This document shows positions 5,232 through 61,269 of a stretch of DNA of 64,000 nt, one piece after another. The notes below the pieces were generated by a model. The model worked only from the letters and a program-made list of their open reading frames with translations, was not told where the DNA came from and did no database searches. Within the stretch, counting starts at the first letter, position 1. Every line of letters starts with the position of its first letter. Both the position numbers and the translations under genes were made by a program. Source of the stretch: a virus; the IMG/VR virus record IMGVR_UViG_3300020020_000028, positions 9,961-73,960 of that record; one strand, written 5' to 3'.

Positions 5232-8200
5232 GCGTTCGGCTTCCTTCCGATGCGTGCTTTTACCTTGTTAAGATTAGCAATCTCTCTCAGGTCATCAGCA
5301 AACAACCGCCATGACATCTTCGCACTATCACCAGCACGTACCGATAATGGAGTCACCCTCAGTCGCGTCATCTCCGCAAGTGTTTCATTGATCGCTCGTT
5401 CAAACCCATTAGGCTGATTGACGATATCAGACTGCCAATACGCTTTAGAGTAATCGGAGATACCGTCGTCCTTCTGCAAGACGTTCATCTTCTGAACATA
5501 ACGAGACTGACCGGGCTGCTGATCGTTCTCCGTTTCCATGTACGTGTCACCAACATGTCGATAGAACATTGCCGACACTGGCCAACGTTTATGAACCTCT
5601 TCCTGCATCTCGGGCCGAACATAGCCACTCACACGGAAGAGACGCTTGTGTTCCTCTGGGGGCAGATTATCAATCTCTTTATGTTCCGCGAGTTGCGCCT
5701 CACGCGCGGCGTCAAATATCGCATGTGAGATCTCATGCGTCACGATCCCATTCGTGACGGCCATACGCTCATCGTATGAGTTACGAGCGTTGATCTCGAT
5801 CACACCAGTGCGTGGATTAAAGTGGCCTGCTTCTCGAAATTCAAGATCACCAACTTTGAATGCAGTCGGTTCTTTATCCACGACGTTGATAATTGCCGGA
5901 GGAATCCCCATTTCCTCAGCGAGTGTTTCCGCGCGTCGTGCAACGATGTCTTTATAGCGAACAGGAAAACCCGGTGGCAACGTTTCTACAGATGCGCCTG
6001 AAGGAGCACTGCCCCCGACTTCACCGGGTCTACCAGCGTGACCGAAGTTCCCTGAACCTTCGCCTCCGAGCGCCTTGAGATCTTCGACCATCGCAAACGC
6101 GACAAACACGCGATGAAACTGCCCAAGCACCTTGAGCCACGGCTTTTCCTCAACCCACGAGAAGGGCTGATCGCGCATCCACGCGGCCTTGATCCACTCA
6201 GGCTTGATGTCACCTGCGAACTGAAACGCGTCTTTCGGATTCGTGATGTAGGAATCGGGGCGCAGTGTCGCCCAGATCTCTTCGGGGATTTCTACTTGCA
6301 GAACGACGGGCTTGACTGCGAAGTCCGAACCGGCACTCCCGTGGTTCTCAGCCGCACTCTTGGCGTAGTCTTTCGCCTGCTGAAGATCCGTCGCGACATA
6401 GACGTTGCCTGCGACACTACCGGGATGCGCCTTGCCCGCGAATTTCGCTCGAATGCCATCCTTGAGGATGGAGTTCAGCGCACCGGATTCGGTGCCGTGG
6501 AAGGCTGTCCACTGGCCACGTTCATCGCGTGGCTGGCTCGGATCGAAAGCTAACGTCCTTACCCTCTTCAACTGCGAGGGAGACTTAATCAGGACAGTCG
6601 CTGGAATCTCACTCTGATTAAGTTCATCCAACGATTGAATCGCATCGTACCCGTGTCGAGCTAACACCTCACGGACAGCCGGAATGTACGCTACGTCTAA
6701 CGGGTTACTACCCCCGTACGGAGAAAAGTCTGAGACGCTAGGTACCTCTAGCCACCATCCCGGCCCATCCTGTCCTGAGGGCGTGAATGTGTACTTGACC
6801 CCCGCTTCATCGAGGAGTGGCAACATCCGTTTGATGTCTTCTTCGTTATGAAGACTAAACGGCTTCGAGACAGAGATCGCAATCTCTTGAAGGCTCCCTT
6901 CTCTTCCACTTCTCTCGTTCTCTTCTTTATACCAACGCGCCGCTTCGGGGTCTGGAGTAGTGAAAATCGGCAGTCGTAGCGTCTCAGGGATCGCTCCACC
7001 AATATAATGAGGTTTCGTCGTATCGAACCGTGTGTCGCCACCTCCGGTCCATCGACCATTCTCATCCCGAGGTTGACTCGGATCGAAACCTAGCCAGCGA
7101 GGATCTTCTTCGCGGCTTCGATCTCCATCGCTGTAGGTTCTCTGCCAGTCAATTTCCGCGCGAGCGCGATGAGTTGATCGAGTGTGGGAGCCTGTGTTTC
7201 GGATCCCGTAACGATAAGCTCCGGCTGCTTTGACATGAGGGTACTCAATGGTAACAGACTTGCCGTTCTTCAAATCGAAATACGCCAACTGCTTGGCTGC
7301 ACGCCCAAGCCTCTCGGCTTCCGCTGCGTCTTGCACAATCGTGCTGACATCCAGATAGGCCATGCCATCTTCGGGGTTATGCCAACCCCCGAGATAGTTG
7401 CCTGACTGACTCAGAAGATCGATGTTCTTGACCGTGTACTCCGCAAGTGCCACGACGGAGACATCCTTCGCCGGAAGAATTTTCTCGCGATCCTTGTGGA
7501 GACTCAGCGCAAAGCCCGTCTTCGGTTGTTCACCCGTCGCAGTGTGGTACGTGAATCCGCCGTCGGCTTGATGAATCGCTTCGAGGATGCCGCTTGGTGC
7601 GGGGAGAGAACCGCCCACCATGCCGGGGCGTCCAGCGTGGCCGAAGTTTCCTGAGCCTGCGCCACCGAGTGTGCTTAACGTCTTGTTCACCAACACGACG
7701 CTGTACAACACACGAGTGTTCTGCGCAAGTGCCCGCCAATCAATGCGATGAAAAAATTCTTTAGAAGGAGTACCGACACCAGTAATCCACTCAGGTGGAA
7801 TGGTGCCCTTTACCGCGAACGCATCGCCTTGATCCTCAGATCGTACGTTCGTAGCCCACCAGTCCCGAGGGATCTCAATTCTTAAAATGACGGGTTCTGT
7901 GTCATCGTTGACCTCTGCGGCATACTTCGCGTACGTATTCGCACTTGTTAGACTCTCCGTGAAGTACACAGACGCTGGGCGACCACCCATGTCCGCGCCT
8001 TGCTGACGTGCGTATTCATCGGCTCCTGTGCCGTGGCCTTTGAAGGGAGAGAGTCCGAATTGTTTGATCGAGGCTAGTGCCTCTGATTGCGTGCCGTGAA
8101 AAACAAGGTGTGGCCCACGGTATCCAACAGTTACACCATCACGATTACCATGAGTCTTCTGATCGTGCTCACCATGCAACGTACGCACGCGCGCCATCTG

Positions 8201-39883: not shown

Positions 39884-40571
39884 CTGGTGTCCATGAGCAC
39901 TGAGCACCTTCGGATTGCCCTTGGACTGAAGCCACAGACGCCTTCGGGATGGGCTTTTTGGTTATTTTACTGGTCGCCATTTGCAAGGATGTGGAGACGT
40001 GCGACGGAGATCTGTAGACGATGGCCGTTCGCTGTTCGACGGAGTAGACGATGAATCCGATAGTGGCAGTAGCAGCGATAGTCCTGATATCAGCCGTCGG
40101 GGCCTATCTGTTGGGACGGCGCTAAACTGGCACGAGGTTCCGCAAGCTCTCTACCTCTCATGGTCCCCGGCACGGCAATACGCATACTGCGCTGAGCGGG
40201 ATCTGAGGGCCTCGATAGAGTTCGCGACATCTCCTGAGGAAGAAAAGTGGTTCTACGACCGAGCCGTCAGTTACAAGAGGATGATGGGAGCATCGATTGT
40301 AAACGTTGTAACAACTCCGGCTTCGTAGCCTACTGGGATGGTAGCGCATTGGCTGGAGAAGGATGTCCGGACTGTACAGGTAATGCGATGACGACGTACG
40401 AGGAACTGGAACAAGAGGCATTGAACGATCCTATCCTCCATAGGTTTCTCACGCACTATCGTCGTGGTGATTGCTCGAAGGAAGAGGCGCTGATTGCAGC
40501 CTGTATCTGGCTCTCACGCGCAAGACGAAAGTTACTCAAAGAAGAAGCCGATAGAATTGCGAGACAGCCAC

Positions 40572-41090
40572 ATGGTTGAAAACACTGTAGAAGAATACGA
40601 CAAGCAATCGTGGGGTCGAGGTTTGTGGGATCACGAACCAGATCGTGTCGAAGGTGAACATGCGGGATTCCCGACACTCGCTCGTCGTGGTCCGATGGGT
40701 TCGTGGTGCGGCTACGTGGCTGTGCCTCCGGGGCACTACGATCACGGGATCTACTACGGAGAGGTCGATGGCGATCTCGATGTCCACGGGGGTCTGACGT
40801 ATTCAGGCTTGTGTCATGGTGCGATCTGCCATGTCCCGAAGCCCGGTGAACCCGATAACGTCTGGTGGTTTGGGTTTGACTGCGGGCACTATCGTGACAT
40901 CACGCCGGGGATGATGAAGTATCATTTCGGATCTGACGAGTATTCCACGTACAAGGATCTATCGTACGTGCAGGAAGAGATCAAGAAGCTCGCAGAGCAA
41001 CTCGCAGAGCGAGCGAAGTGGGTGCGCGTCGATGTACATGCGCTCGCTCAGCGGTTGAAGGAAAAATGGACACGGGTCGCTGTCGAGTAG
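40572..41090 (+). CDS. Conserved phage hypothetical protein
   Basis: WCGYVAVP, VHGGLTYS, WWFGFDCGH motifs. Confidence 0.7.
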   Translation: MVENTVEEYDKQSWGRGLWDHEPDRVEGEHAGFPTLARRGPMGSWCGYVAVPPGHYDHGIYYGEVDGDLDVHGGLTYSGLCHGAICHVPKPGEPDNVWWFGFDCGHYRDITPGMMKYHFGSDEYSTYKDLSYVQEEIKKLAEQLAERAKWVRVDVHALAQRLKEKWTRVAVE

Positions 41091-41202
41091 GTTATCATTG
41101 CCAATGAGGAGGTCGCGGGTTCGAATCCCGTCACATGCCGTAACAGGATGTGTAGCTCAGTGGTAGAGCGCTTAAACACCTACTTACGCTCTTTATCCGT
41201 GT
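41070..41202 (+). ncRNA. Y-RNA-like unit 1; cargo = permuted tRNA-Gly(GCC)-like
   Basis: ACACGG/CCGTGT stem, GGGTCG, GTTATC, CTTTATCC; cargo order anticodon loop (TTGCCAA), T arm, closed acceptor, D arm. Confidence 0.85.
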
Positions 41203-41371
41203 TATGTTCGAAACTCTGTGTTGCCGTTGCTGCGTGAGCATGTAAGAGACACGGATAGGGACCGCGTCACGGGCGGTTCCGATTTTATGACGTTGCAAGC
41301 CGTGATTACCCTGAGTCGCGCAAATCGTGAGGTTTGCTGGGTCTGTGGCCTATCGGCTTGGCGTCTCCAGT

Positions 41372-41513
41372 AAGACGTGGGTCGCTGTATTACGGTTCTC
41401 CTATGGGTCGCGGGTTCAAATCCCGTCATCGCGACGCCTAACAAGCTATGCGATGTAGCTCAGTTGGTTAGAGCAATAGATAAAAGTCCGTAAGCACCTC
41501 TTATCCGCGTCTT
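41372..41513 (+). ncRNA. Y-RNA-like unit 2; YrlA-type T-acceptor-D cargo
   Basis: AAGACGTGG/CCGCGTCTT stem; GGTTCAAATCC precedes TAGCTCAGTTGGTTAGAGC. Confidence 0.85.
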
Positions 41514-41535
41514 TGTTCTTTGACAACTTAAATCA

Positions 41536-41595
41536 GTCGGAGGCGCATAGTGCGTGATGATCACACGCAGTAGGGAAACCTACCCTCCGGCACCA
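41536..41595 (+). ncRNA. 60-nt mini tRNA-like RNA ending ACCA
   Basis: GTCGGAGG/CCTCCGGC stem + ACCA, hairpins TGCGTG/CACGCA and GTAGG-GAAA-CCTAC. Confidence 0.6.
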
Positions 41596-41600
41596 CTTAA

Positions 41601-41736
41601 TCCTCGGGTCGCATTGACATCGTTATCTCTTACCATACTCAAGAGGGTAGCTCAGTGGTAGAGCGTCCGATTTGTAATCGGAAGGTCGTGGGTTCGAATC
41701 CCACTCTAACGCGGTGTTGAATCACTTATCCGGGGA
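41601..41736 (+). ncRNA. Y-RNA-like unit 3; cargo = tRNA-Thr(TGT)-like permuted within the acceptor 3' strand
   Basis: Intact D, anticodon (TCCGA-TTTGTAA-TCGGA) and T arms; CTCTTACCA lies 5' of its partner AAGAG. Confidence 0.85.
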
Positions 41737-41749
41737 GTTTTACAATTTC

Positions 41750-41819
41750 CGATTCGGGTCGATCAGATAGCGTTATCCTTAAGAGATAAAAATGCTGTCT
41801 ACGTCACTTATCCGAATCG
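41750..41819 (+). ncRNA. Y-RNA-like unit 4; hairpin cargo with loop CTTAAGA
   Basis: CGATTCGG/CCGAATCG; TTATC-CTTAAGA-GATAA. Confidence 0.85.
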
Positions 41820-41822
41820 ATT

Positions 41823-41915
41823 TTTCCGGGGCGGTTGATATCAGAGTGCGAAAGCAACGCATAACGGCAGAAATGTCGGAGGACCCCGTCGCTAACTCGG
41901 GCGGGAACCCGGAAA
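41823..41915 (+). ncRNA. Unknown multibranch RNA with GAAA tetraloops
   Basis: TTTCCGGG/CCCGGAAA closing; TGC-GAAA-GCA, CGGCA-GAAA-TGTCG, CCCGTC/GGCGGG. Confidence 0.55.
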
Positions 41916-42036
41916 TGTGAGGTAACACAAAACCACTCGGTGCGCTCCCAACTATCGCTCTCTGGTGGAAAGTAGTGTTCGTAAGCCACGTGGGAATTAG
42001 TTCAGGCTAGGTTGCACGTGGGCCTCTTTTTGATCT

Positions 42037-42111
42037 GGGGCTATGCACCTCGCGAGAGGGGGCTGAATAAGGCGAAAGCCGGAGCGGGTGAAAATCCCGT
42101 AGGCTCCACCA
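42037..42111 (+). ncRNA. tRNA-Ala/tmRNA-TLD-like RNA with G3:U70 and ACCA
   Basis: GGGGCT...GCGGG-TGAAAAT-CCCGT-AGGCTCC-ACCA; no canonical D or anticodon arm. Confidence 0.65.
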
Positions 42112-42115
42112 GTCA

Positions 42116-42205
42116 GGAAGGCTGACCGAGCGGCATGGTGCCAGCTTGCTAAGCTGTGGCTTCGCAGAGATGCGATCAGGGGTTCGAGTCCCTTGCCTTC
42201 CGCCA
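42116..42205 (+). tRNA. tRNA-Ser(GCT)
   Basis: GGAAGGC/GCCTTCC-GCCA, CAGC-TTGCTAA-GCTG, long variable arm, GGTTCGAGTCC. Confidence 0.9.
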
Positions 42206-42210
42206 AAGTT

Positions 42211-42282
42211 TTCGACGGGTCGCTCGTGACAGGGTTATCACTCCTAATGATTACCCCCTGCACAATTCACTTATCCGTCGAA
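42211..42282 (+). ncRNA. Y-RNA-like unit 5; hairpin cargo with loop CTCCTAA
   Basis: TTCGACGG/CCGTCGAA; ATCA-CTCCTAA-TGAT. Confidence 0.85.
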
Positions 42283-42327
42283 CTCTCGGGGCTCTGCTCA
42301 AGGAGGTAGCATCCCCAATGATTTTGA

Positions 42328-42477
42328 ATCTCGGGTCGCAGTCGTAGAGTTATCCCAGGAACGAGTGCCCTTCGGGGCATGCGTGGTTCGAATCCCGCTC
42401 CTCTCGAATCAGTGAGAGGATGGCGAAACTGGCAGACGCGCTCGTATTTAGTTCTGCGGCGAATACTTATCCGAGAT
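42328..42477 (+). ncRNA. Y-RNA-like unit 6; cargo = permuted tRNA-Leu(CAG)-like
   Basis: CCCAGGA-ACGAG, variable arm TGCCC-TTCG-GGGCA, T arm, TCCTCTC/GAGAGGA acceptor, Leu-type D loop, CTCGT. Confidence 0.85.
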
Positions 42478-42485
42478 GTGTTTCT

Positions 42486-42600
42486 CCACGGGTCGCGGCT
42501 GTATGGTTATCATTGGTTGAAACTCTGGCCTAAGCCGAAAGGCGTCAAGCCGGAGGGAGGTTCGAATCCTCAATATCCCATACGCACACTTTATCCGTGG
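42486..42600 (+). ncRNA. Y-RNA-like unit 7; long stem + T-arm cargo
   Basis: CCACGG/CCGTGG; CTCTGGC/GCCGGAG; GAGG-TTCGAAT-CCTC. Confidence 0.8.
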
Positions 42601-42695
42601 GTTTGTAGGCAGATGAGCGCGATCTGCCGTCAGCCGGGAGAGACTACTCGTTGCGCTGGTTGCAACCATCAACGACGTTTCTCCCTTGCTGTTTC

Positions 42696-42788
42696 TCCGT
42701 GGGTCGCTGTTTGGAAGGTTATCTTTTTGCCAAAAAAAGGGAGTTGGGTGAAACCCCTGACACCCTTCTGACGATCTTTATCCACGGA
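42696..42788 (+). ncRNA. Y-RNA-like unit 8; cargo with TTGCCAA loop + short hairpin
   Basis: TCCGTGG/CCACGGA; TTT-TTGCCAA-AAA; GGG-TGAAA-CCC. Confidence 0.8.
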
Positions 42789-42793
42789 ACTTC

Positions 42794-42927
42794 TCAGCGG
42801 GTCGCCGGTGACGATTATCTTCTGTCGTAGGTTCGACTCCTACTCTGCTAGGCAACTAGTAGATAGCTCAGTTGGTAGAGCAAAGACGGTATCCACTCCG
42901 TTTCGTCGCTGACTCTTTATCCGCTGA
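42794..42927 (+). ncRNA. Y-RNA-like unit 9; YrlA-type cargo, acceptor closed by GCAA tetraloop
   Basis: TCAGCGG/CCGCTGA; GTAGG-TTCGACT-CCTAC; TCTGCTAG-GCAA-CTAGTAGA; D arm. Confidence 0.85.
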
Positions 42928-43017
42928 ATTTTTTTCAACTCAAGGCGTGGTGTTCTCTGAAAAGAGGCGCAGCTTCCGGAAGCTAGATCTGAAGTGACAG
43001 ATCTCTTGAGTATTTCT

Positions 43018-43085
43018 TTGACGGGTCGATGATTGAGGATTATCTTATAACGATAAAAATCCTTAGTCGATCACTTATCCGTCAA
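43018..43085 (+). ncRNA. Y-RNA-like unit 10; hairpin cargo with loop TTATAAC
   Basis: TTGACGG/CCGTCAA; GATTGAGGAT/ATCCTTAGTC. Confidence 0.85.
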
Positions 43086-43095
43086 TTTCCGATTC

Positions 43096-43158
43096 TTGAC
43101 GGGTCGAATGTGTAGGGTTATCTAGTTAATGATCCCTGCCGATTCACTTATCCGTCAA
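43096..43158 (+). ncRNA. Y-RNA-like unit 11; minimal cargo
   Basis: TTGACGG/CCGTCAA; GTAGGG/CCCTGC. Confidence 0.8.
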
Positions 43159-43172
43159 CTCAAGATCGATAC

Positions 43173-43243
43173 GTCCGGGTCGATAGGGTAGGGTTACCAT
43201 GATCACCAATCATCCACAGCCCTGCTTGACAACTTATCCGGAC
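43173..43243 (+). ncRNA. Y-RNA-like unit 12; hairpin cargo ATGAT-CACCA-ATCAT
   Basis: GTCCGG/CCGGAC; GGGTAGGGT/GCCCTGCTT. Confidence 0.8.
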
Positions 43244-43250
43244 ACTGTTA

Positions 43251-43364
43251 GTAGAGGGTCGCGGTTTTATCGGTTATCAAGGTTCGACTCCTTCCTCACC
43301 CAACTCTGTGGGTGGGGAAGCCTGAAATGGTCAGGCACTCCGATGAACAATCTTTATCCTCTAC
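43251..43364 (+). ncRNA. Y-RNA-like unit 13; T arm + 9-bp acceptor-like stem + D-like arm
   Basis: GTAGAGG/CCTCTAC; AAGG-TTCGACT-CCTT; CCTCACCCA/TGGGTGGGG; GCCTG/CAGGC. Confidence 0.8.
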
Positions 43365-43383
43365 GTTTTGAAAGGTGTGGGAC

Positions 43384-45111
43384 ATGACAGTTAACTACGC
43401 GAAGCACTACAACAAGAAGCAGACGCCGCAGAGCGAGAAGATTCCGGGCGAGAAGCAGGTGGCGAACAACGCTGGAGGCTACGTCTACGAGGTAGACAAG
43501 TGGCAGCGTCTCGCACGGTTCTTGATCCTCGGCACGGACGGCGGCACGTACTACGTCAGCGAGCGAAAGCTCACGCGTGAGAATGCACAGGTTGTCGAAG
43601 CCTGTCTCGCGACGGACGGCGGACGTACGATTGCGGAGATCATCGAGATCTCTCAGACTGGTCGTGCGCCGAAGAACGATCAGGCGGTCTTTGCACTGGC
43701 GCTTGCAGCCTCCGTGCAGGTTCCGGACGCTAGTGGTGTGTCCGCAGAGTCGATCCGTAGCATGGCGCTCGATGCACTGCCGAAGGTCTGCCGGATCCCG
43801 ACGCATCTCTTTCAGTTCATGACGGCGATCAAGGCGATGCGTGGTAGCTCGCGTATGCTCCGTCGTGCACTCGGAGAGTGGTACTCGCAGTGGGACGCAA
43901 ATAAGCTCGCCTACGAACTGGTGAAGTACCAGTCGCGCGAGGGATGGGCGAATCGTGACGTGCTGCGTCTCGCGCACCCGAAGATGTCCGCAGAACATCA
44001 GGCGGTGGTGCGATGGGCTGTCTGCGGCCATGAAGCTGCGGCATCTCCTGGCCCTCGTGAGGTGAAGCGCGCGAAGGAAGATACGCGCACGTCGCGCATC
44101 TATCAGCCGGTTGCTGATGTGCCGAACATCATCGCGGCCTTCGAGTTGGCCAAGACGAAGCCGCCGGTTGAATTGCTTGTGCGTTTGATCCGCGAGCATG
44201 GTCTGACGCGAGAGATGCTGCCGACGGAGTGTCTGAACGAGGTCGCGGTATGGGAGGCATTGCTCGAAAAGATGCCGCTCACGGCGATGATCCGCAATCT
44301 CGGCAAGATGTCTTCGTTGGGGATCTTCGAGCCGTTGAAGTCCAGCGCATGGTCCAAGCACGTGGTCGAGAGGATCACCTCTCAGGAGAACTTGCGGAAG
44401 TCTCGCGTGCATCCGCTGTTCATCTTGAATGCGATGAAGACCTATGCGCAGGGCCACGGTGACAAGGGGTCGTTGAAGTGGACCCCGGCTGCGAAGATCG
44501 TGGACGCGCTCGATGCGGCGTTCTACGAAGCCTTCGGCAACGTGGAGCCCACCGGCAAAAACGTGATGCTGGCGCTCGACGTGAGTGGATCGATGGGTTC
44601 GCTCATCGGTGGCACGAGTCTGTCCTGCCGTGAGGCGTGTGCGGCACTTGCACTCGTCACGCAGGCTGTCGAAGACAACGTGCAGATCGTTGGGTTCACC
44701 AACGGCGGGTCTGTGGCTCGACGTTCGCAGTGGGGTGGATACCTGAGCGGGATTTCTCCGCTCAAGATCTCGAAGCGTCAGCGTCTCGATGACGTAGTGA
44801 AGTACATCGCTGGACTGAACTTCGGAGGCACGGACTGCGCCCTGCCGATGATCTACGCGGAGAGCGAGAAGCTCGATGTCGATGGGTTCGTGGTCTACAC
44901 GGACAACGAGACGTGGGCGGGAGATATCCACCCGTCGCAGGCGCTGCGAAGCTACCGAGCGAAGCAGAACAAGCCGGAGGCGGCACAGGTAGTCGTGGGC
45001 ATGACGGCGAGTGGATTCACGATTGCTTCTCCTGATGATCCTAGAACACTTGATGTGGTAGGCTTCGATCTCGCCACTCCGACGGCGATTTCGGCGTTTA
45101 TCAAAGGGTAA
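43384..45111 (+). CDS. rsr: Ro60/TROVE-vWA RNA-binding protein
   Basis: QVANNAGGYVY, RLARFLILGTDGGTYY, KYQSREGW, MPLTAMIRNLGKM, LALDVSGSM (MIDAS), YTDNETW, DVVGFD. Confidence 0.95.
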   Translation: MTVNYAKHYNKKQTPQSEKIPGEKQVANNAGGYVYEVDKWQRLARFLILGTDGGTYYVSERKLTRENAQVVEACLATDGGRTIAEIIEISQTGRAPKNDQAVFALALAASVQVPDASGVSAESIRSMALDALPKVCRIPTHLFQFMTAIKAMRGSSRMLRRALGEWYSQWDANKLAYELVKYQSREGWANRDVLRLAHPKMSAEHQAVVRWAVCGHEAAASPGPREVKRAKEDTRTSRIYQPVADVPNIIAAFELAKTKPPVELLVRLIREHGLTREMLPTECLNEVAVWEALLEKMPLTAMIRNLGKMSSLGIFEPLKSSAWSKHVVERITSQENLRKSRVHPLFILNAMKTYAQGHGDKGSLKWTPAAKIVDALDAAFYEAFGNVEPTGKNVMLALDVSGSMGSLIGGTSLSCREACAALALVTQAVEDNVQIVGFTNGGSVARRSQWGGYLSGISPLKISKRQRLDDVVKYIAGLNFGGTDCALPMIYAESEKLDVDGFVVYTDNETWAGDIHPSQALRSYRAKQNKPEAAQVVVGMTASGFTIASPDDPRTLDVVGFDLATPTAISAFIKG

Positions 45112-45181
45112 CTGCTACGGTGCTGAGCCGTGGTGGCGCGGGATTCGCTGAGGTGAGGAGCCTCGGCGGTCCCGCATCTTT

Positions 45182-45257
45182 TGGCCGGTAGCTCAGTTGG
45201 TAGAGCGCACGGCTGTTAACCGTGTGGTCGCAAGTTCGAATCTTGCTCGGCCAGCCA
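45182..45257 (+). tRNA. tRNA-Asn(GTT)
   Basis: 76-nt cloverleaf, CACGG-CTGTTAA-CCGTG, ends GCCA. Confidence 0.95.
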
Positions 45258-45982
45258 ATCTGGAGATGAAATGGAATCACGAAGCGATGATGCCAGTCTC
45301 ATAACAGGTGTCTTCGTCGCGGGTATTGTGATCGGTTACGCACTAGCGTTGTTGACTATCTTATAATGAACAAACACATAAACTGGTCACTCGTTCTAAT
45401 CACTACGTGGTTGATTATCTTCACAGGTTTGATCGTCGCCGCACGCAATCAAGCCGTCGAGAAAACACCTTATCACCGAACCACAGAGTGGGAACTCCGC
45501 TGGAATCTCAAGGTCATTGATACCGCGGGTGTGTGTCTCTACATCTACGAAGGTCAAGGTATCGCCGCTGTGCCGAAAACGCAGTTACCTCCGGGAGTCG
45601 GATGTCAATGAACTGTCCTGGCTGTGGCGAGGAACTGATACAAGAGGATTCTATTCTAGAGTTCTCGTATCTCTGCGCGGCGTGCGGTGATCGATTCAAT
45701 AAGAATTACGATTCGATGAAGGAGTCAGAAACGATGGCGAACAGTGCAATGGTCAACAGACGTTCGGATCCGGATGGGAATCTCGAAACACGGTTCCGAT
45801 GCGATGTTCGCGACGCGCTGGATATGGACATGTTCACGCGAGACGGACAGATCATCGACGAGATCAAGAAGCTGAAGCGCGAGATCAAGAGATTGGAACT
45901 CGCTGATCGTTTCCACACACATACAGCAACAAAAGAAGATATCGAAGCCCACCTCAAGAGTCTGATCGCTAAAGGTTGATCG

Positions 45983-46774
45983 ATGCAACAAACCAAAGAC
46001 ATGGCGGAGCGGAACACGATTCTTCGCGTTCCTGCCGGTAGTACTCTCCACGGGTTGCATATCCCCGGCACAGACGATCAGGACGAGGTCGGTGTCTGTA
46101 TCGAGGATATTCAATCCGCGATTGGATTCTCGGAGTTCGAGCAATTCATTTACCGCACGGCTGCTGAACGTGAAGGTAAGCACGATGCGCCGAGTCAGGC
46201 TGGCGATCTTGATCTGACCATCTTCAGTCTGCGAAAATTCTTGCGTCTTGCGATGCAGGGCAATCCCCAGATTCTGCAATGCTTGTTCGTGCCTCAATCT
46301 CTGTGCCTACAACGTGATTCACGTGGCGCGCAGTTACAGGAGATGGCGCCGTTGATCGTGAGTCGTCAAGCGGGTGCTCGGTATCTTGGGTACCTTGAGG
46401 CGCAACGGCAACGACTCCTCGGAGAACGGGGTCAGAAGAAAACGAATCGTCCGGAACTCGAAGCCAAACACGGCTTCGATACTAAGTACGCGATGCACAT
46501 CTTGCGCCTGGGTTTTCAAGGTGTGGAATTGATGTCCACCGGTCGTCTCACGTTGCCGATGAACGAAGAGGATCGAAAGTTCACCTACGCTGTTCGTTGC
46601 GGTGAAATTCCGTTACAAGATGCACTGACCAAAGCCGGGGAACTGGAACGTCAGATCAAAGATCTACTCCACGACGCACCAATTCCCGCACAACCCGCGC
46701 GTGAAGAAATCGAAGCGTGGATGGTATCGATGTATCTGGAAAATTGGAAGGCGCGTGAAACGGTTCATGCCTGA
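45983..46774 (+). CDS. Pol-beta-superfamily nucleotidyltransferase (RlaP-like)
   Basis: GSTLHGL...DDQDEVGV, KFLRLAMQGNP, DTKYAMHILRL. Confidence 0.8.
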   Translation: MQQTKDMAERNTILRVPAGSTLHGLHIPGTDDQDEVGVCIEDIQSAIGFSEFEQFIYRTAAEREGKHDAPSQAGDLDLTIFSLRKFLRLAMQGNPQILQCLFVPQSLCLQRDSRGAQLQEMAPLIVSRQAGARYLGYLEAQRQRLLGERGQKKTNRPELEAKHGFDTKYAMHILRLGFQGVELMSTGRLTLPMNEEDRKFTYAVRCGEIPLQDALTKAGELERQIKDLLHDAPIPAQPAREEIEAWMVSMYLENWKARETVHA

Positions 46775-58103: not shown

Positions 58104-58763
58104 CATACCCACTTGGCGGACATTCGAGTATTCAACGCGCCTTAGCGATTGCAGACTGTTACGGATCAATTGACGGTGAACACCACAAGATGTGGGTTAT
58201 CGATCAGATGGTCCGTGCTCTGGTTGCCGAGGATTATGAGAACTGGGTTCGACAACATAAGGACGGACAAGATGGGCCAGACACGCATAGGTGGGATAAA
58301 GGGATCGCGCCGTGAGGATGGTATGAAACGAGGTGAGAATCTCAAGGCTATCCCCCGCGAGGAACGCGTACGTCTTGGAAGACAAGGTGGTATCGTTAGT
58401 GGCAAGGTTAAGTTAGAGAAACTTCTCGACGGGTACATGAAGATCGTGAGAGAGCAAGGTGTTTATGCTGCTCTCAAAGTCTGCCGAGAAGAATCGTGGA
58501 TGCGAGGTTACGACGCTTGTAAAAAGCAGGAGTTAAGACGTGAAAAATCGCGACGGAGATCAACCTCTACCGAAAGCCAGCAACAGTCCTCCGATGCACG
58601 ATCTCGTCTGCGAGGACATGATGGCTCGCAAAGCACTGGGAATCAGACGGTACGGGAGAGCCCTGCAAGCGAACAACGGACGCGACGGATTGCGTGATCA
58701 CTACGAAGAATTGCTCGATGCGTGTGCGTATGCAAGGCAATTGTTGTACGAAAGGGACGGCAA

Positions 58764-60245
58764 GTGAATATCTTATCCGTGTTGCGTAAGGACGGCTATA
58801 AGGTCGGTCATCCATTTCAGTATCCGGATAAGACCACGATGGTCTACTCGAATTTGACTCCGCGGTCGAGCCGGGTCGAAGGTGTCGATCAAGTTGTAGT
58901 CTTCGGACCACAATTCTTCGCGAAGAAGTGGTTGATTGACGATTTCAATAGGAATTTCTTTGATGTGCCGCGAGCAGAGATGTTGACGACCTACAAGCGT
59001 CGCATCGAGAACTATCTCGGACCACTGAAGTCATACAATCACATCGAAGAACTCCACGAGCTTGGCTATCTGCCGCTGAAGATCAAGGCATTGCCCGAAG
59101 GCACGCTGTGCCCTCTACGAGTACCATTGTTGACAATCCGCAACACCCTGCCTCGCTTTGGATGGTTGACCAACATGCTGGAGACGCATATGAGTGCCGC
59201 ACTCTGGCGTCCGATCACCAGCGCAACCACGTCATTTAACTACCGACGAGAGTTCGAGAAATATGCGAAACTCACCGGAGGTGACAAAGCGTTCGTGAAG
59301 TGGCAGGGCCATGATTTCTCGATGCGTGGGATCGATCCTGAGGCATCTATTTCATCCGGGGCCGCACACCTCCTGTCGTTCACCGGCACGGATACGATTC
59401 CAGCCATCGACTTTCTCGAACAATACTACGGCGCAGATTGTGAGAAAGAGTTGATCGGAGGGAGCGTTCCGGCTACGGAGCATTCCGTGATGTCGATGGG
59501 GATGCAGGATGGAGAGTTCAATACCATTCGTCGATTGATCACCGAAGTTTATCCGACGGGTATCGTCAGCATCGTGTGTGATACATGGGATTTCTGGAAG
59601 GTGCTCACAGACTACTTGCCGCGACTCAAAAATGAGATCATGGCGAGGGATGGAAAAGTCGTGGTCCGTCCGGACAGCGGCGATCCGGTAGACATCATCT
59701 GTGGAGCGAGAAGCCAAGTGAAACTTCCCATCACCGCTCGTAATGAAGCGGTGTGGAGCGGGGCTATCGGAACACTGTGGCACGTCTTTGGTGGGACAGT
59801 TAGTGCAACCGGCCACAAGATACTCGACCCGCACATCGGTCTGATCTATGGTGACAGTATCACGAAGGACCGGCAGGAAAAGATCCTCAGCAAACTCATG
59901 GAAAACGGGTTCGCCTCCACGAACGTGGTTCTTGGGATTGGTAGCTACACCTTCCAATACGTGACACGTGACACCTACGGACTGGCGGTGAAAGCCACCT
60001 ACGGTGAGATCGATGGCAAGGGTCAGGCGATCTTCAAGAAGCCGCTGACAGATGACGGTCTGAAGAATTCTGCGAAGGGTTTACTCCGTGTCGAACGTGA
60101 TTCGTGGGGAAAGCTCGTGTGCCACGAGGACCAAACATGGGAGCAGGAAGAACAAGGTCTGCTCCAGGACATCTTCGTTGACGGAGAGACGCGGAACTTT
60201 CAAACCTTGTCACAGATCCGTGAGAGGATTGAGGCTCAACTGTGA
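58764..60245 (+). CDS. Nicotinamide phosphoribosyltransferase-family enzyme (Nampt/Namat)
   Basis: DGYKVGH, HDFSMRG, GTDT, VPATEHSVM, SIVCDTWD, VRPDSGDP, IYGDSIT. Confidence 0.9.
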   Translation: MNILSVLRKDGYKVGHPFQYPDKTTMVYSNLTPRSSRVEGVDQVVVFGPQFFAKKWLIDDFNRNFFDVPRAEMLTTYKRRIENYLGPLKSYNHIEELHELGYLPLKIKALPEGTLCPLRVPLLTIRNTLPRFGWLTNMLETHMSAALWRPITSATTSFNYRREFEKYAKLTGGDKAFVKWQGHDFSMRGIDPEASISSGAAHLLSFTGTDTIPAIDFLEQYYGADCEKELIGGSVPATEHSVMSMGMQDGEFNTIRRLITEVYPTGIVSIVCDTWDFWKVLTDYLPRLKNEIMARDGKVVVRPDSGDPVDIICGARSQVKLPITARNEAVWSGAIGTLWHVFGGTVSATGHKILDPHIGLIYGDSITKDRQEKILSKLMENGFASTNVVLGIGSYTFQYVTRDTYGLAVKATYGEIDGKGQAIFKKPLTDDGLKNSAKGLLRVERDSWGKLVCHEDQTWEQEEQGLLQDIFVDGETRNFQTLSQIRERIEAQL

Positions 60246-60447
60246 TGTTCACACAATACAGACGTAAACAGATCGCTGAACTTCGTCCGTACGTCTTCGG
60301 TGAAGATCTCCAACATGTATCTATTTCTATAGAGGACAGTAAAAATGGATCACCGAAAGAAGGTGACATGATCGCCCGGAATCCGAAGAATCATGCTGAT
60401 CAATGGTTGGTTGCACATCAGTACTTCGTGGATAACTTCGAGGCCAT

Positions 60448-61269
60448 ATGATCATCAAGACGCGCGGTGGGAATCTTCCATTCAAATTATTTTCGTTCCC
60501 GGATGGGCAGCGGCACTTCAAACTCGAAGCATGGGATCATGAATGGAAAAGCGCGACCATTGAATCCCGCATCGCGAACGCTGAAGAACTCTTCGATGTC
60601 TTGCTCGCGAAAGATGTGCTGAGTTTTCAAGGCTATATAGTGTCTCTCGATGTTCGGTATCTACTTGGTGCGAGGATGGATCGACGTATCAGTAACGCTG
60701 AACCACACACGTTGCAACTCGTGTCCGAGATGATCAACGCTGCGGGTTTCAAAAAGATTCGCATTCTTGACCCACACTCGGAAGTGGCTCTAGTGTATCT
60801 AGATGCTGAGCCCGTCTTTCCAGTTCATGAAGTCAAACTAGTCATGGCCCACTATGATTCTCATGATACGGCAATTGTGGCACCTGACGACGGGGCCTCA
60901 CCGAGAGTGCGGAAACTTCTAGAGTTGACACATAATGGTCACTTCTCTGTCGTTCAGGGTGTGAAACATAGAGATCCGAATACCGGTCGGTTATCAGCGT
61001 TCTCAACTAAAGATCCATCGCTAGTAAAAGACAAACGATGTCTCATCCTCGACGATATCTGTGACGGAGGAGGCACGTTCACCGGACTCTCTGAAGTCCT
61101 ACGAGATGCCGGGGCCAAGAGTGTTGATCTCTTCGTCACGCACGGTATCTTCTCGAAGGGCACGACACTCGAAGGCATCGACCAGATCTACACCACGGAC
61201 TCCTATCATCCGATTGGTAAACTTGTCGGGCCGATCACCATGCATGTGAAGATGCACGAGGATATATGA
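60448..61269 (+). CDS. PRPP-synthetase-like enzyme (Prs/Adps)
   Basis: FPDGQ, YLLGARMDR, LDPHS, APDDGA, ILDDICDGGGTF, VTHGIFS. Confidence 0.9.
   Translation: MIIKTRGGNLPFKLFSFPDGQRHFKLEAWDHEWKSATIESRIANAEELFDVLLAKDVLSFQGYIVSLDVRYLLGARMDRRISNAEPHTLQLVSEMINAAGFKKIRILDPHSEVALVYLDAEPVFPVHEVKLVMAHYDSHDTAIVAPDDGASPRVRKLLELTHNGHFSVVQGVKHRDPNTGRLSAFSTKDPSLVKDKRCLILDDICDGGGTFTGLSEVLRDAGAKSVDLFVTHGIFSKGTTLEGIDQIYTTDSYHPIGKLVGPITMHVKMHEDI

What the first reader, a model, noticed from the sequence alone, without database searches (positions are those of the whole stretch)
41750..43243. Minimal units display bare anticodon-like stem-loops on the Ro handle
Seen: unit 4 loop CU-UAA-GA (Leu UAA-like), unit 5 CU-CCU-AA (Arg CCU-like), unit 8 UU-GCC-AA (Gly, same as unit 1) and unit 10 UU-AUA-AC. 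All are 7-nt loops with Y32, U33 and purine 37. Unit 12 presents CACCA in a loop (CCA-end-like); unit 11 is ambiguous. Known: anticodon nucleases (PrrC, RloC, VapC, PARIS AriB, retron PtuAB) cut specific tRNA anticodon loops in antiphage defence. Inference: a panel of anticodon decoys, or donor parts for tRNA repair.
Basis: inference. Interest (0 to 1): 0.8.

Follow-up and report, generated by a model that had tools for sequence, protein, structure and literature searches.

The report
Minimal Y RNAs with anticodon-like loops
A soil phage carries, in front of its Ro60 gene, a row of 13 small partner RNAs; the shortest are plain hairpins whose tip loop has the shape signature of a tRNA anticodon loop, and the same signature recurs in related RNAs of many phages and bacteria, which gives the poorly understood short Y RNAs a testable function.

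Summary
Units 4, 5 and 10 fold into single long hairpins (z -3.6 to -4.4). Each tip is a 7-nt loop: CUUAAGA, CUCCUAA, UUAUAAC. Unit 12 shows CACCA in a 5-nt loop, unit 11 is ambiguous, and the "Gly" loop of unit 8 is not its best fold.

They are minimal (YrlB-like) members of a 13-unit Y-RNA array directly upstream of a phage Ro60 gene. The "anticodon stem" is built on UUAUC, a motif conserved across Y RNAs.

In about 190 homologous hairpins from viral, bacterial and metagenome Ro60 loci, 7 nt is the commonest loop length (about 35%, against 7% in shuffles). Of those loops 55-69% fit YUNNNRN, against 6-7% expected. The consensus is C32 U33 N N N A37 A38, close to real tRNAs, and a loop-agnostic scanner finds the same enrichment.

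Against strict mimicry:
- Two thirds of the loops have other lengths.
- Stems are usually 3-4 bp.
- Triplets are pyrimidine-biased and unrelated to neighbouring tRNA genes.
- No RNA ligase was found in the record.

The decoy and donor functions remain untested. Earlier AI notes of this scan describe the same theme on other DNA. I found no paper describing it.

The parts
41068..43365 (+). Array of 13 Y-RNA-like units. Each has an outer stem, GGGUCG, GUUAUC, variable cargo, YUUAUCC and the closing outer stem. tRNA-Ser(GCU) lies inside the array.
   Evidence: Motif positions; folds; sub-threshold Rfam YrlA matches on units 1, 2 and 9; CM R1 hits 10 of the units.
41751..41818 (+). Unit 4, a minimal Y RNA. 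The apical hairpin is UUAUC-CUUAAGA-GAUAA, with the loop at 41778-41784.
   Evidence: R1 64.1 bits; fold z -4.44; local fold.
42212..42281 (+). Unit 5, a minimal Y RNA. The apical hairpin is AUCA-CUCCUAA-UGAU, with the loop at 42241-42247.
   Evidence: R1 62.9 bits; z -3.60.
42696..42788 (+). Unit 8, an intermediate unit with two hairpins. The proposed UUGCCAA loop is not the best fold.
   Evidence: R1 35.4 bits; z -1.17 and an ill-defined ensemble; sub-optimal folds.
43018..43085 (+). Unit 10, a minimal Y RNA. The apical hairpin is UUAUC-UUAUAAC-GAUAA, with the loop at 43045-43051.
   Evidence: R1 65.9 bits; z -4.42; weak match to the nematode stem-bulge (Y-like) RNA family RF01656.
43096..43158 (+). 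Unit 11, a minimal Y RNA. The loop is either 8 nt (UAGUUAAU, 43123-43130) or 7 nt (CUAGUUA). Its 5' motif GUCGAAUG fits the published GNCGAAN0-1G.
   Evidence: R1 57.4 bits; z -4.22; two equally stable folds; RF01656 match.
43172..43244 (+). Unit 12, a minimal Y RNA with GUUACC. The apical hairpin is AUGAU-CACCA-AUCAU, with the loop at 43204-43208.
   Evidence: R1 55.4 bits; z -3.67.
43384..45111 (+). Ro60/Rsr orthologue (TROVE plus Ro60 vWA domains), the presumed protein partner of the array.
   Evidence: Pfam PF05731 at 7.9e-50 and PF25045 at 4.1e-55.
42116..42205 (+). tRNA-Ser(GCU) embedded between units 4 and 5.
   Evidence: ARAGORN; Rfam tRNA 44.9 bits.
45182..45257 (+). tRNA-Asn(GUU), just after the Ro60 gene.
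   Evidence: ARAGORN; Rfam tRNA 70 bits.
45983..46774 (+). RlaP-family (RNA-repair-associated Pol-beta) nucleotidyltransferase, 870 nt after Ro60.
   Evidence: Pfam PF10127 at 8.3e-26; PHROG 388 at 3e-58. The same Ro60-RlaP order is seen in L074, L031/L066 and L050.

Best explanation
The short units are minimal, YrlB-type Y RNAs, the partner RNAs of the phage Ro60.

Each has a Ro60-binding handle: the GGGUCG/YUUAUCC bulged helix plus an outer stem. This is followed by a covarying inner helix and an apical hairpin seeded by UUAUC, a motif found throughout the Y RNA family.

In units 4, 5 and 10, and in about a third of homologous units elsewhere, the hairpin ends in a 7-nt loop with consensus C-U-N-N-N-A-A. 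That is the anticodon-loop (U-turn) signature.

My reading is that this loop is the effector or target-recognition module of these small Ro60 RNPs. The fixed flanks would pre-shape the loop, and the three middle bases would give each unit its specificity. The partner is most likely a factor that reads tRNA anticodon loops, but it is unknown.

Shown:
- The anatomy of the units.
- Linkage to Ro60 on the same strand.
- Covariation of the scaffold.
- Enrichment and consensus of the loop.

Inferred:
- Transcription and processing of the array together with tRNA-Ser.
- Binding to Ro60.
- A U-turn fold.
- Any partner.

Rough odds:
- They are Ro60-partner Y RNAs: 0.9.
- The loop is under selection as a recognition element: 0.6.
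- Its partner is a factor that reads tRNA anticodon loops: 0.35.
- That factor is a host anticodon nuclease being decoyed: 0.15.
For: Identity as Y RNAs:
- Of 266 CM R1 hits in four searches, 217 lie in loci oriented on the Ro60 gene, and all but one of these are on the Ro60 strand. The 49 hits in pattern-found loci are on either strand of their locus.
- In the first three sets, where Ro60 could be located, 132 hits lie upstream, 30 downstream and 1 on the opposite strand. The median distance upstream is 302 nt.
- The scaffold covaries: 91.5% of cells are paired against 67% in shuffles, and 0 of 500 shuffles reach the observed covariation score.
- Full-size units give sub-threshold YrlA matches in which UUAU aligns to the published YUAY (PMC4201824).
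- The minis weakly match the nematode stem-bulge (Y-homologue) RNA family through CGGxCCG...GGGUUAUC...ACUUxxCCG.

The loop:
- Viral minis: 29 of 78 loops are 7 nt, against 7.3% in shuffled interiors, and 18 of the 29 fit YUNNNRN (p = 3e-14).
- Non-training units, one per cluster: 12 of 20 fit.
- Bacterial/MAG loci: 16 of 50 loops are 7 nt and 11 fit.
- Metagenome loci: 20 of 45 are 7 nt and 11 fit.
- Loop-agnostic scanner: 42 of 140 are 7 nt and 19 fit (p = 1e-11), with 200 hits on the Ro60 strand and 15 on the opposite strand.
- Position by position the loop reads C32, U33, A37, A38/C38, with only 0.04-0.14 bit at position 35.
- The 32/38 combination is C.A in 50% of loops, against 43% in 758 real tRNAs from the same loci.
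- The CU start follows the end of the stem at offsets of 0, 1, 3 and 5 nt from UUAUC, so it is a feature of the loop and not an extension of the motif.
- The 30 fitting loops hold 21 different triplets.
- Identical loops are kept in 5 close orthologue pairs although the flanks differ at up to 14 positions.

Context:
- The array mixes real tRNAs with tRNA-like cargo.
- RlaP lies downstream.
- The literature shows YrlA to be a tRNA mimic (PMC4201824; 10.1101/312249) and floated the idea that it inhibits an anticodon nuclease by competition (PMC7790460).
Against: - No RNA-level evidence could be had, whether of expression, RNA ends, Ro60 binding or loop conformation.
- Loops are called from predicted folds. 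The apical hairpins of units 4 and 10 are weak on their own, -1.8 and -2.8 kcal/mol.
- Only about a third of homologous hairpins have 7-nt loops. Lengths range from 3 to 29 nt, and 8-9-nt versions such as CUCCAAAC and CUUCCAAAC share the CU start. The conserved feature may therefore be looser than a true anticodon loop.
- The stem is 3-4 bp in most homologues; the fifth pair is at chance level.
- The middle bases are pyrimidine-biased, 0.61-0.69 against 0.56 in tRNAs. This fits the 'small pyrimidine-rich loop' already noted for YrlB and Yrn2 (PMC4201824).
- U33 and A37 could pair in an unmodified hairpin and collapse the loop. This rests on my own knowledge and was not tested.
- The orthologue-pair test is small and not significant overall.
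Confidence: 0.6

Rival explanations
1. The first reader's specific version, which is a sub-case of the best explanation. The minis would be a panel of Ro60-held anticodon-arm decoys. They would soak up or competitively inhibit host anticodon nucleases such as PrrC, RloC, VapC, AriB or PtuAB-type effectors during infection.
For: - The loop consensus matches tRNA anticodon loops at all four conserved positions, and the middle is variable.
- Several different triplets occur in one array: UAA, CCU and AUA in this window.
- The locus lies among tRNA genes, tRNA-like Y RNAs and an RlaP repair-type nucleotidyltransferase. NAD-salvage genes further downstream may be counter-defence genes too; that link rests on my own knowledge.
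- Hughes et al. 2020 proposed competitive inhibition of an anticodon nuclease for YrlA (PMC7790460).
- Phage tRNAs are known to counter tRNA-targeting defences (PMC10264068, PMC11555353).
Against: - No biochemical data exist.
- The stems are the Y-RNA UUAUC motif rather than copies of tRNA anticodon stems, and are mostly 3-4 bp.
- AUA (unit 10) has A at position 34, which only 3% of the real tRNAs in these loci have.
- Triplets are pyrimidine-biased and show no link to the anticodons of neighbouring tRNA genes (2 of 12 match, P = 0.24).
- Two thirds of homologues have loops of the wrong length.
- The same module occurs in bacterial contigs next to Rsr, where an anti-defence decoy makes less sense, unless those loci are prophages.
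Confidence: 0.15
2. The minis are donor parts for tRNA repair. Their anticodon-like hairpins would be ligated into damaged tRNAs, or would guide the replacement of lost anticodon nucleotides.
For: An RlaP-family nucleotidyltransferase, predicted in the literature to restore nucleotides before ligation (PMC7824862), lies 870 nt after Ro60. It also follows Ro60 in 4 of 71 viral loci.
Against: - No RtcB or Rnl2-type ligase was found in the 74-kb record. The Rnl1 search was uninformative.
- The hairpin has the same sense as an anticodon loop, so it cannot act as a template for one.
- Its stem does not match any tRNA in the window.
- RlaP linkage is rare.
Confidence: 0.03
3. The loop is a pyrimidine-rich single-stranded docking site, with no tRNA mimicry. 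It would tether Ro60 to a general RNA-binding effector such as the KH/S1 domains of host PNPase, as in the known RYPER complex.
For: - Y RNAs of D. radiodurans and of Thermus phage phiLo bind PNPase (PMC4201824; PMC12135203).
- The middle positions are 61-69% pyrimidine, and recurrent loops such as CUUCCAA, CUCCAAAC and CUUCCAAAC keep their sequence flavour across lengths of 7-9 nt.
- The YU start is also enriched in loops of other lengths: 17 of 40 for 8-10 nt and 17 of 49 for 3-6 nt.
Against: - The 7-nt class is singled out. YU...R together occurs in 55-69% of 7-nt loops but only 8-50% of loops of 6, 8 or 9 nt, in small sets.
- Position 35 carries almost no information.
- The window's own loops UAA and AUA are not pyrimidine-rich.
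- A 7-nt closed loop seems a small target for KH plus S1 domains (my own judgement, not tested).
Confidence: 0.2
4. The loop is a structural cap or an evolutionary relic. It would resemble an anticodon loop only because CUNNNAA is a stable way to close a hairpin, or because Y-like RNAs descend from tRNA dimers and the hairpin 5' of the T arm is an old anticodon arm. On this reading the minis act only as gates or competitors that occupy Ro60.
For: - In full-size units the hairpin occupies the V-arm position of YrlA, immediately 5' of the T arm. That is where the tRNA-dimer origin model would place the first tRNA's anticodon arm (10.1101/312249).
- Loop lengths vary widely.
- Vertebrate Y RNAs are known to gate Ro60 (PMC4726728).
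Against: - Four loop positions stay conserved across Ro60 proteins that are only 35-53% identical to the window's, in phages and bacteria.
- The loop is identical in close orthologue pairs whose flanks have drifted.
- The fitting 7-nt loop is almost confined to the minis: 29 of 115 units up to 85 nt, against 1 of 27 longer units. This suggests it replaces the tRNA-like cargo as the working end.
Confidence: 0.15

Closest known systems
YrlB / Yrn2-type bacterial Y RNAs (S. Typhimurium YrlB, M. smegmatis YrlB, D. radiodurans Yrn2; Chen et al. 2014, PMC4201824)
   Same: - They are short RNAs encoded next to rsr/Ro60 on the same strand, alongside a tRNA-like YrlA.
- They form a single long hairpin with a small loop, described there as pyrimidine-rich.
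- The 5' motif is of the GNCGAA type.
- They are processed from a common precursor (M. smegmatis).
   Different: - Here five to six of them sit in one 13-unit array.
- The tip loop has a defined 7-nt C-U-N-N-N-A-A consensus, which is conserved across phyla.
- None of the papers I could search describes it as anticodon-like.
YrlA (Rfam RF02553; crystal structure of the S. Typhimurium tRNA-like domain, 10.1101/312249)
   Same: - The handle is the same, and so is the YUAY/UUAUC motif at the start of the V region.
- YrlA-like units occur in the same array (units 1, 2 and 9 score 38-46 bits).
- Both belong to the theme of tRNA mimicry.
   Different: - The minis lack the T arm, the acceptor-like stem and the D arm.
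- They do not match RF02553 at all, and the full units stay below its gathering score of 69 bits.
- YrlA is stated to lack an anticodon loop, whereas the minis have only the anticodon-loop-like hairpin.
Eukaryotic Y RNAs and nematode stem-bulge RNAs (Rfam RF01656; Kowalski and Krude 2015, PMC4726728)
   Same: - Both have a lower stem with CGGxCCG / ACUUxxCCG and an upper stem ending in GGGUUAUC.
- UUAUC is a conserved, functionally required motif in sbRNAs and is present in vertebrate Y RNAs.
- Minis 10 and 11 align end to end with the sbRNA model.
   Different: - The scores are below threshold: 25-27 bits against a gathering score of 38.
- In sbRNAs UUAUC opens a large internal loop. Here it is the 5' strand of a short apical hairpin.
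- The host kingdom differs, and no link to DNA replication is implied.
tRNA anticodon stem-loop, and known mimics of it such as the thrS operator hairpin (from my own knowledge)
   Same: - The loop is 7 nt with C/U32, U33, a variable 34-36, A37 and A/C38.
- The C.A 32/38 combination dominates, as in real tRNAs.
- Units 4 and 10 have a 5-bp stem.
   Different: - The stem sequence is the Y-RNA motif, and it is 3-4 bp in most homologues.
- There is no D/T core in the minis.
- U34 is over-represented and some triplets have A34.
- Modification status is unknown.
Thermus phage phiLo Ro60 with Yrl1/Yrl2 (PMC12135203), and mycobacteriophage Ro-like genes with YrlA
   Same: - A phage-encoded Ro60 has Y-like RNAs immediately upstream.
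- Cultured actinophages carry the same mini units: Dandelion has 2 and FuzzBuster has 3, with loops CUGUCAC, CUGUUAA and CUGCUAC.
   Different: - phiLo has two Yrls, and its paper does not mention loops or tRNA-like parts.
- This window has 13 units, the most in about 310 loci sampled.

Membership tests
Bacterial/phage Y RNA (Ro60 partner RNA) | Encoded within about 2 kb of a Ro60/Rsr gene, on the same strand. | tested here: met
   The array ends 19 nt before the Ro60 start codon. Among homologous units, 132 lie upstream, 30 downstream and 1 on the opposite strand.
Bacterial/phage Y RNA (Ro60 partner RNA) | The 5' and 3' ends pair into a conserved bulged helix that carries the Ro60-contact motif (GNCGAAN0-1G / GGUCCGA-like). 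| tested here: met
   - GGGUCG pairs with YUUAUCC and is flanked by a 5-6 bp outer stem in all 13 units.
- Unit 11 fits GNCGAAN0-1G exactly; the others differ at 1-2 positions.
- The helix covaries, for example U-A changing to C-G at pair 9.
Bacterial/phage Y RNA (Ro60 partner RNA) | Physical binding to Ro60, and Ro60-dependent accumulation. | not testable with these tools
   No RNA run holds the sequence.
YrlA (Rfam RF02553) | A score at or above the curated gathering score, and a tRNA-like T/acceptor/D domain. | tested here: not met
   The minis give no YrlA match. Full units 1, 2 and 9 score 38-46 bits against a threshold of 69. The minis have a single hairpin.
YrlB/Yrn2-type short Y RNA | [quoted passage not shown] | tested here: met
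   - Units 4, 5, 10, 11 and 12 fold into a single hairpin with loops of 5-8 nt.
- Loop pyrimidine content is 3-5 of 7 in the window and 61-69% in the middle triplet across the family.
- No sequence comparison with the published YrlB was possible.
tRNA anticodon stem-loop mimic | A 7-nt loop with Y32, U33 and R37. | tested here: met
   - Met in units 4, 5 and 10; not met in units 11 and 12; ambiguous in unit 8.
- In the family, 66 of 187 loops are 7 nt and 41 of those fit.
tRNA anticodon stem-loop mimic | A 5-bp stem closing the loop. | tested here: inconclusive
   The stem is 5 bp in units 4 and 10 and 4 bp in unit 5. In 44 homologous hairpins, pairs 1-3 are almost always formed, pair 4 in 31 of 44, and pair 5 at chance level (17 of 44).
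tRNA anticodon stem-loop mimic | The middle triplet corresponds to a real tRNA species of the host or phage. | tested here: inconclusive
   - UAA and CCU are natural anticodons. AUA has A at position 34, seen in 3% of the real tRNAs of these loci.
- Only 2 of 30 fitting loops have A34, and none is a stop anticodon.
- There is no association with the anticodons of tRNA genes in the same locus.
- The host is unknown.
Anticodon-nuclease decoy / anti-defence RNA | Binds, or is cut by, a tRNA-targeting defence nuclease and protects the phage. | not testable with these tools
   This needs biochemistry and phage genetics. Cultured phages that carry the module were identified.

The most novel reading that the evidence does not exclude
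Short Y RNAs would be programmable anticodon-arm displays. A Ro60 ring would hold a hairpin whose fixed C-U...A-A frame presents three exchangeable bases, and phages would carry panels of them to bait, block or hand over to decay the host factors that read or cut specific tRNA anticodons. That would be an RNA-based counter-defence working alongside phage tRNA arrays.
Probability: 0.15. Interest if true: 0.85.

Novelty: new variant of a known kind. Interest (0 to 1): 0.62.

Why it matters
Bacterial and phage Ro60 and Y RNAs have been known for over twenty years, but the partners of YrlA and the purpose of the short YrlB-type RNAs remain open.

A conserved, anticodon-loop-shaped tip on the short RNAs, seen from soil phages to Myxococcota, Gemmatimonadota and cultured actinophages, gives these RNAs a concrete working end that can be mutated. 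It also links them to the active field of tRNA-targeting phage defence.

The observation also ties the bacterial YUAY motif to the UUAUC motif of animal Y RNAs. That bears on whether bacterial and eukaryotic Y RNAs share ancestry.

If the loops do engage anticodon-reading enzymes, this would be a new kind of tRNA-part mimic.

Tried and rejected
- Exact handle motifs found few related units because the handles differ between lineages. I replaced them with covariance model R1.
- An IMG/VR pattern scan returned many likely chance matches, so I kept only loci confirmed by R1.
- MAFFT aligned the 19-nt hairpins by the UUAUC motif rather than by structure. I counted the pairs by script instead.
- T-loop reading: rejected. 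C at the third loop position is rare, the fifth is mostly U and not A, and the closing pair is mostly C-G rather than G-C.
- Bias from training R1 on loops: checked with non-training sets and with a loop-agnostic scanner. The enrichment persists.
- Triplet against anticodons of tRNA genes in the same locus, identical or complementary: no association.
- Orthologue-pair test of whether the triplet evolves faster or slower than the rest: 13 of 42 against 187 of 873, not significant.
- Promoter and terminator scan of 40300-45400: no more sites than in shuffles.
- RtcB and Rnl2-type ligase families: not found in the record. The Rnl1 search rang nowhere, controls included, so it says nothing.
- Two review papers (PMC10870794, PMC6047535) are not held.
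- A second model for full-size units was prepared but not built. The V regions of full units are visibly heterogeneous.


Full report
**What is there**

The window is part of a 73,960-base IMG/VR virus record, about 70% complete. It is held almost only by soil metagenome runs.

Between 41068 and 43365 on the + strand lie 13 units with one constant frame:
- a 5-6 bp outer stem;
- GGGUCG;
- about 10 nt, then GUUAUC (GUUACC or GUUCUC in some units);
- a variable insert;
- the complement of the 10 nt;
- YUUAUCC and the closing strand of the outer stem.

The array ends 19 nt before a 575-residue Ro60 orthologue with TROVE (7.9e-50) and Ro60-vWA (4.1e-55) domains. tRNA-Ser(GCU) lies inside the array and tRNA-Asn(GUU) follows Ro60.

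Units 1, 2 and 9 give full-length but sub-threshold matches to Rfam YrlA (38-46 bits against 69). The UUAU of GUUAUC aligns to the conserved YUAY that Chen et al. place at the start of the YrlA variable arm (PMC4201824). Unit 3 contains a tRNA body (Rfam tRNA positions 6-65, anticodon loop UUUGUAA).

The surroundings are a phage replication and nucleotide-metabolism block:
- upstream, a phosphoesterase and a MazG-like protein;
- downstream, an RlaP-family nucleotidyltransferase, PolA, a methylase, a sliding clamp and an exonuclease;
- further on, a NAMPT plus phosphoribosyltransferase pair and an SNF2 helicase.

**The observation**

Units 4, 5, 10, 11 and 12 are 63-73 nt long and fold into single long hairpins with z-scores of -3.6 to -4.4.

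- Units 4, 5 and 10 end in 7-nt loops: CUUAAGA, CUCCUAA and UUAUAAC. The closing stems are UUAUC/GAUAA (5 bp) in units 4 and 10 and AUCA/UGAU in unit 5. Three unpaired bases on the 3' side separate this stem from the inner helix.
- Unit 12 shows CACCA in a 5-nt loop.
- Unit 11 has two equally stable tips, neither of which fits.
- Unit 8 is not a clean case. Its U and A runs can zip up, the ensemble is diffuse and z is only -1.2.

So the description is accurate for the three clear units and for units 11 and 12, and over-read for unit 8.

**Are they Y RNAs?**

I built a covariance model (R1) from 13 short units and gave it only the outer and inner helices as structure. I searched four sets of loci with it.

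| Set of loci | R1 hits |
|---|---|
| 71 viral Ro60 loci plus the window | 73 |
| 80 viral loci found by a loop-free DNA pattern | 49 |
| 80 bacterial/MAG Rsr loci | 64 |
| 80 metagenome Ro60 loci | 80 |

- In the three sets whose loci are oriented on the Ro60 gene, all but one of the 217 hits lie on the Ro60 strand.
- Where Ro60 could be located (first three sets), 132 hits lie upstream, 30 downstream and 1 on the opposite strand. The median distance is 302 nt.
- The two helices covary strongly: 91.5% of cells are paired against 67% in shuffles, and slid controls give about 40%. The alignment is fitted to the model, which flatters these numbers.
- Minis 10 and 11 also align end to end, below threshold, with the Rfam family of nematode stem-bulge RNAs, which are Y-RNA homologues. 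The shared elements are CGGxCCG, an upper stem ending in GGGUUAUC, and ACUUxxCCG.
- UUAUC is a known conserved and functionally required motif of sbRNAs and is present in vertebrate Y RNAs (PMC4726728).

[quoted passage not shown] The 5' strand of the supposed anticodon stem is a Y-RNA motif, not a copy of a tRNA.

I folded every non-redundant unit and read the hairpin that starts at the UUAUC-type motif.

| Set | 7-nt loops | Fit YUNNNRN |
|---|---|---|
| Viral single-hairpin minis | 29 of 78 | 18 (p = 3e-14) |
| Viral, non-training, one per cluster | 20 of 61 | 12 (p = 1e-9) |
| Bacterial/MAG hairpins | 16 of 50 | 11 |
| Metagenome hairpins | 20 of 45 | 11 (p = 2e-8) |
| Loop-agnostic scanner | 42 of 140 | 19 (p = 1e-11) |

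- Base composition predicts 7% of 7-nt loops fitting the pattern.
- Dinucleotide-shuffled interiors give 7.3% 7-nt loops, 6.2% of which fit.
- R1 has weak preferences in its apical columns. I therefore wrote a scanner that uses only the handle, the UUAYC motif and a 9-bp outer helix. It finds 200 units on the Ro60 strand and 15 on the other.

The consensus is C32 U33 N N N A37 A38(C), with 0.04-0.14 bit at position 35. G38 is absent, which partly follows from how a loop is defined. The 32/38 combination is C.A in half of the loops.

The 758 real tRNAs found in the same loci read as follows:
- position 32: C .61, U .34;
- position 33: U .82;
- position 37: A .75, G .21;
- position 38: A .65, C .21;
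- the 32/38 combination C.A: .43.

The CU start follows the end of the stem at offsets of 0, 1, 3 or 5 nt from UUAUC, so it belongs to the loop rather than to the motif. The 30 fitting loops of the first two sets hold 21 different triplets. The fitting 7-nt loop is almost confined to the short units: 29 of 115 units up to 85 nt, against 1 of 27 longer ones.

**What speaks against strict anticodon-arm mimicry**

- Two thirds of homologous hairpins have loops of 3-29 nt.
- 8-9-nt variants such as CUCCAAAC and CUUCCAAAC share the sequence flavour, and the YU start is enriched in loops of other lengths too.
- The stem is reliably only 3-4 bp.
- The middle positions are 61-69% pyrimidine, with U34 over-represented.
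- AUA (unit 10) has A at position 34, which is rare in the real tRNAs of these loci.
- Triplets are neither equal nor complementary to the anticodons of tRNA genes in the same locus more often than permuted triplets are.
- Between orthologues the loop is identical in five close pairs while their flanks drift. In a more distant cluster it varies as much as the rest of the unit. The pooled test is not significant.
- I found no RtcB or Rnl2-type ligase in the record.
- RlaP follows Ro60 in only 4 of 71 viral loci.
- No RNA run holds the region.

**Explanation**

My preferred reading is that these are minimal Y RNAs in which the tRNA-like cargo of YrlA is replaced by a short hairpin. Its loop would be a selected, pre-shaped display element: fixed C-U and A-A flanks with three variable bases.

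In the literature every Y RNA module studied acts as a tether or a gate for Ro60 (PMC4201824, PMC12135203, PMC4726728). The loop is therefore most simply the recognition end of the RNP.

A partner that reads tRNA anticodon loops is the most economical guess, for three reasons:
- the four-position match to real tRNA loops;
- the tRNA-part theme of the whole array;
- the published suggestion that YrlA could compete with an anticodon nuclease (PMC7790460).

I put this at about 0.35, and the nuclease-decoy version at about 0.15. The rivals are a pyrimidine-loop tether for PNPase-like proteins (0.2), a structural cap or tRNA-derived relic (0.15), and repair donors (0.03).

**Novelty and precedent**

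- Known already: Y RNA genes beside phage Ro60, tRNA mimicry by YrlA, and short hairpin Y RNAs.
- I found no paper describing the defined anticodon-loop-type consensus of the short units, its spread across phages and several bacterial phyla, its near-restriction to the minimal units, or a 13-unit array. In about 310 sampled loci, the next largest arrays have 4-7 units.
- Earlier AI notes of this scan report the same theme on other genomes, for Ro60 and for Ro60-like DUF2828 loci. I treated them as leads. The conservation claim is reproduced here independently. The claim of anticodon swapping between close relatives is not clearly borne out in my sample.
- Cultured phages carry the same module, so the idea can be tested at the bench. 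Dandelion has a mini with loop CUGUCAC. FuzzBuster has units with loops CUGUUAA and CUGCUAC.

Noticed in passing
window 43017-43158 (units 10 and 11); also all units at the GUUAUC position: The minis align end to end, below threshold, with Rfam RF01656, the nematode stem-bulge RNAs that are Y RNA homologues. The bacterial/phage YUAY motif is the same UUAUC that is conserved and functionally required in sbRNAs and present in vertebrate Y RNAs. This shared scaffold is not remarked on in the papers I read.
   Followed up: partly
window 41778-41783 and 43045-43050: The loops of unit 4 (CUUAAG) and unit 10 (UUAUAA) are 6-nt palindromes, as is UUGCAA in L007:4998-5016. They could form loop-loop homodimers. 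Three among about 41 fitting loops, against about 1.3 expected, is not significant.
   Followed up: partly
window 43204-43208; L239:3812-3882, L218:857-926, L212:3829-3896: CACCA, the sequence of a tRNA 3' end, recurs in the apical loop of minimal units from three lineages (unit 12; two orthologous Kofleriaceae/Myxococcales units; one Haliangiales unit). That is about three independent cases against roughly one expected.
   Followed up: no
window 58722-61269: A NAMPT-family nicotinamide phosphoribosyltransferase lies next to a phosphoribosyltransferase / PRPP-synthetase-like gene. This looks like an NAD salvage pair, a kind that (from my own knowledge) phages use against NAD-depleting defences.
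   Followed up: no
window 42037-42111: A structured stretch lies just before tRNA-Ser. It gives only a very weak tmRNA-family match (8.7 bits), and its nature is unresolved. Structured spacers also lie at about 41200-41370, 41815-42035, 42600-42695 and 42925-43015.
   Followed up: no
L256:5673-5740 and 5885-5953 (same in L342); L273:3892-3958 and 6202-6268: Two minis of one locus carry loops with complementary cores: UUAGGGU with CUUCCCC, and UUGGU with CUUCCCA. More generally there is a UUGG/GGA loop class beside the CUUCC class. Kissing between units is conceivable.
   Followed up: no
L194-L273 (bacterial/MAG Rsr loci): ARAGORN calls on average 7.3 tRNAs per locus of about 8 kb around the closest bacterial Ro60 homologues, and 56 of 80 loci have at least one. 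These loci may be tRNA-array islands or prophages, or some YrlA-like units may be called as tRNAs.
   Followed up: no
L274:2560-2850 (Gordonia phage Cashline) and L277:1730-2400 (M. abscessus prophage prophiGD43A-5): Read by eye, the unannotated intergenic DNA upstream of the Ro-like genes holds two to four YrlA-like units (GGUUACC/GGUUAUC, then a T arm, then a D arm). They have divergent handles that R1 did not detect.
   Followed up: partly
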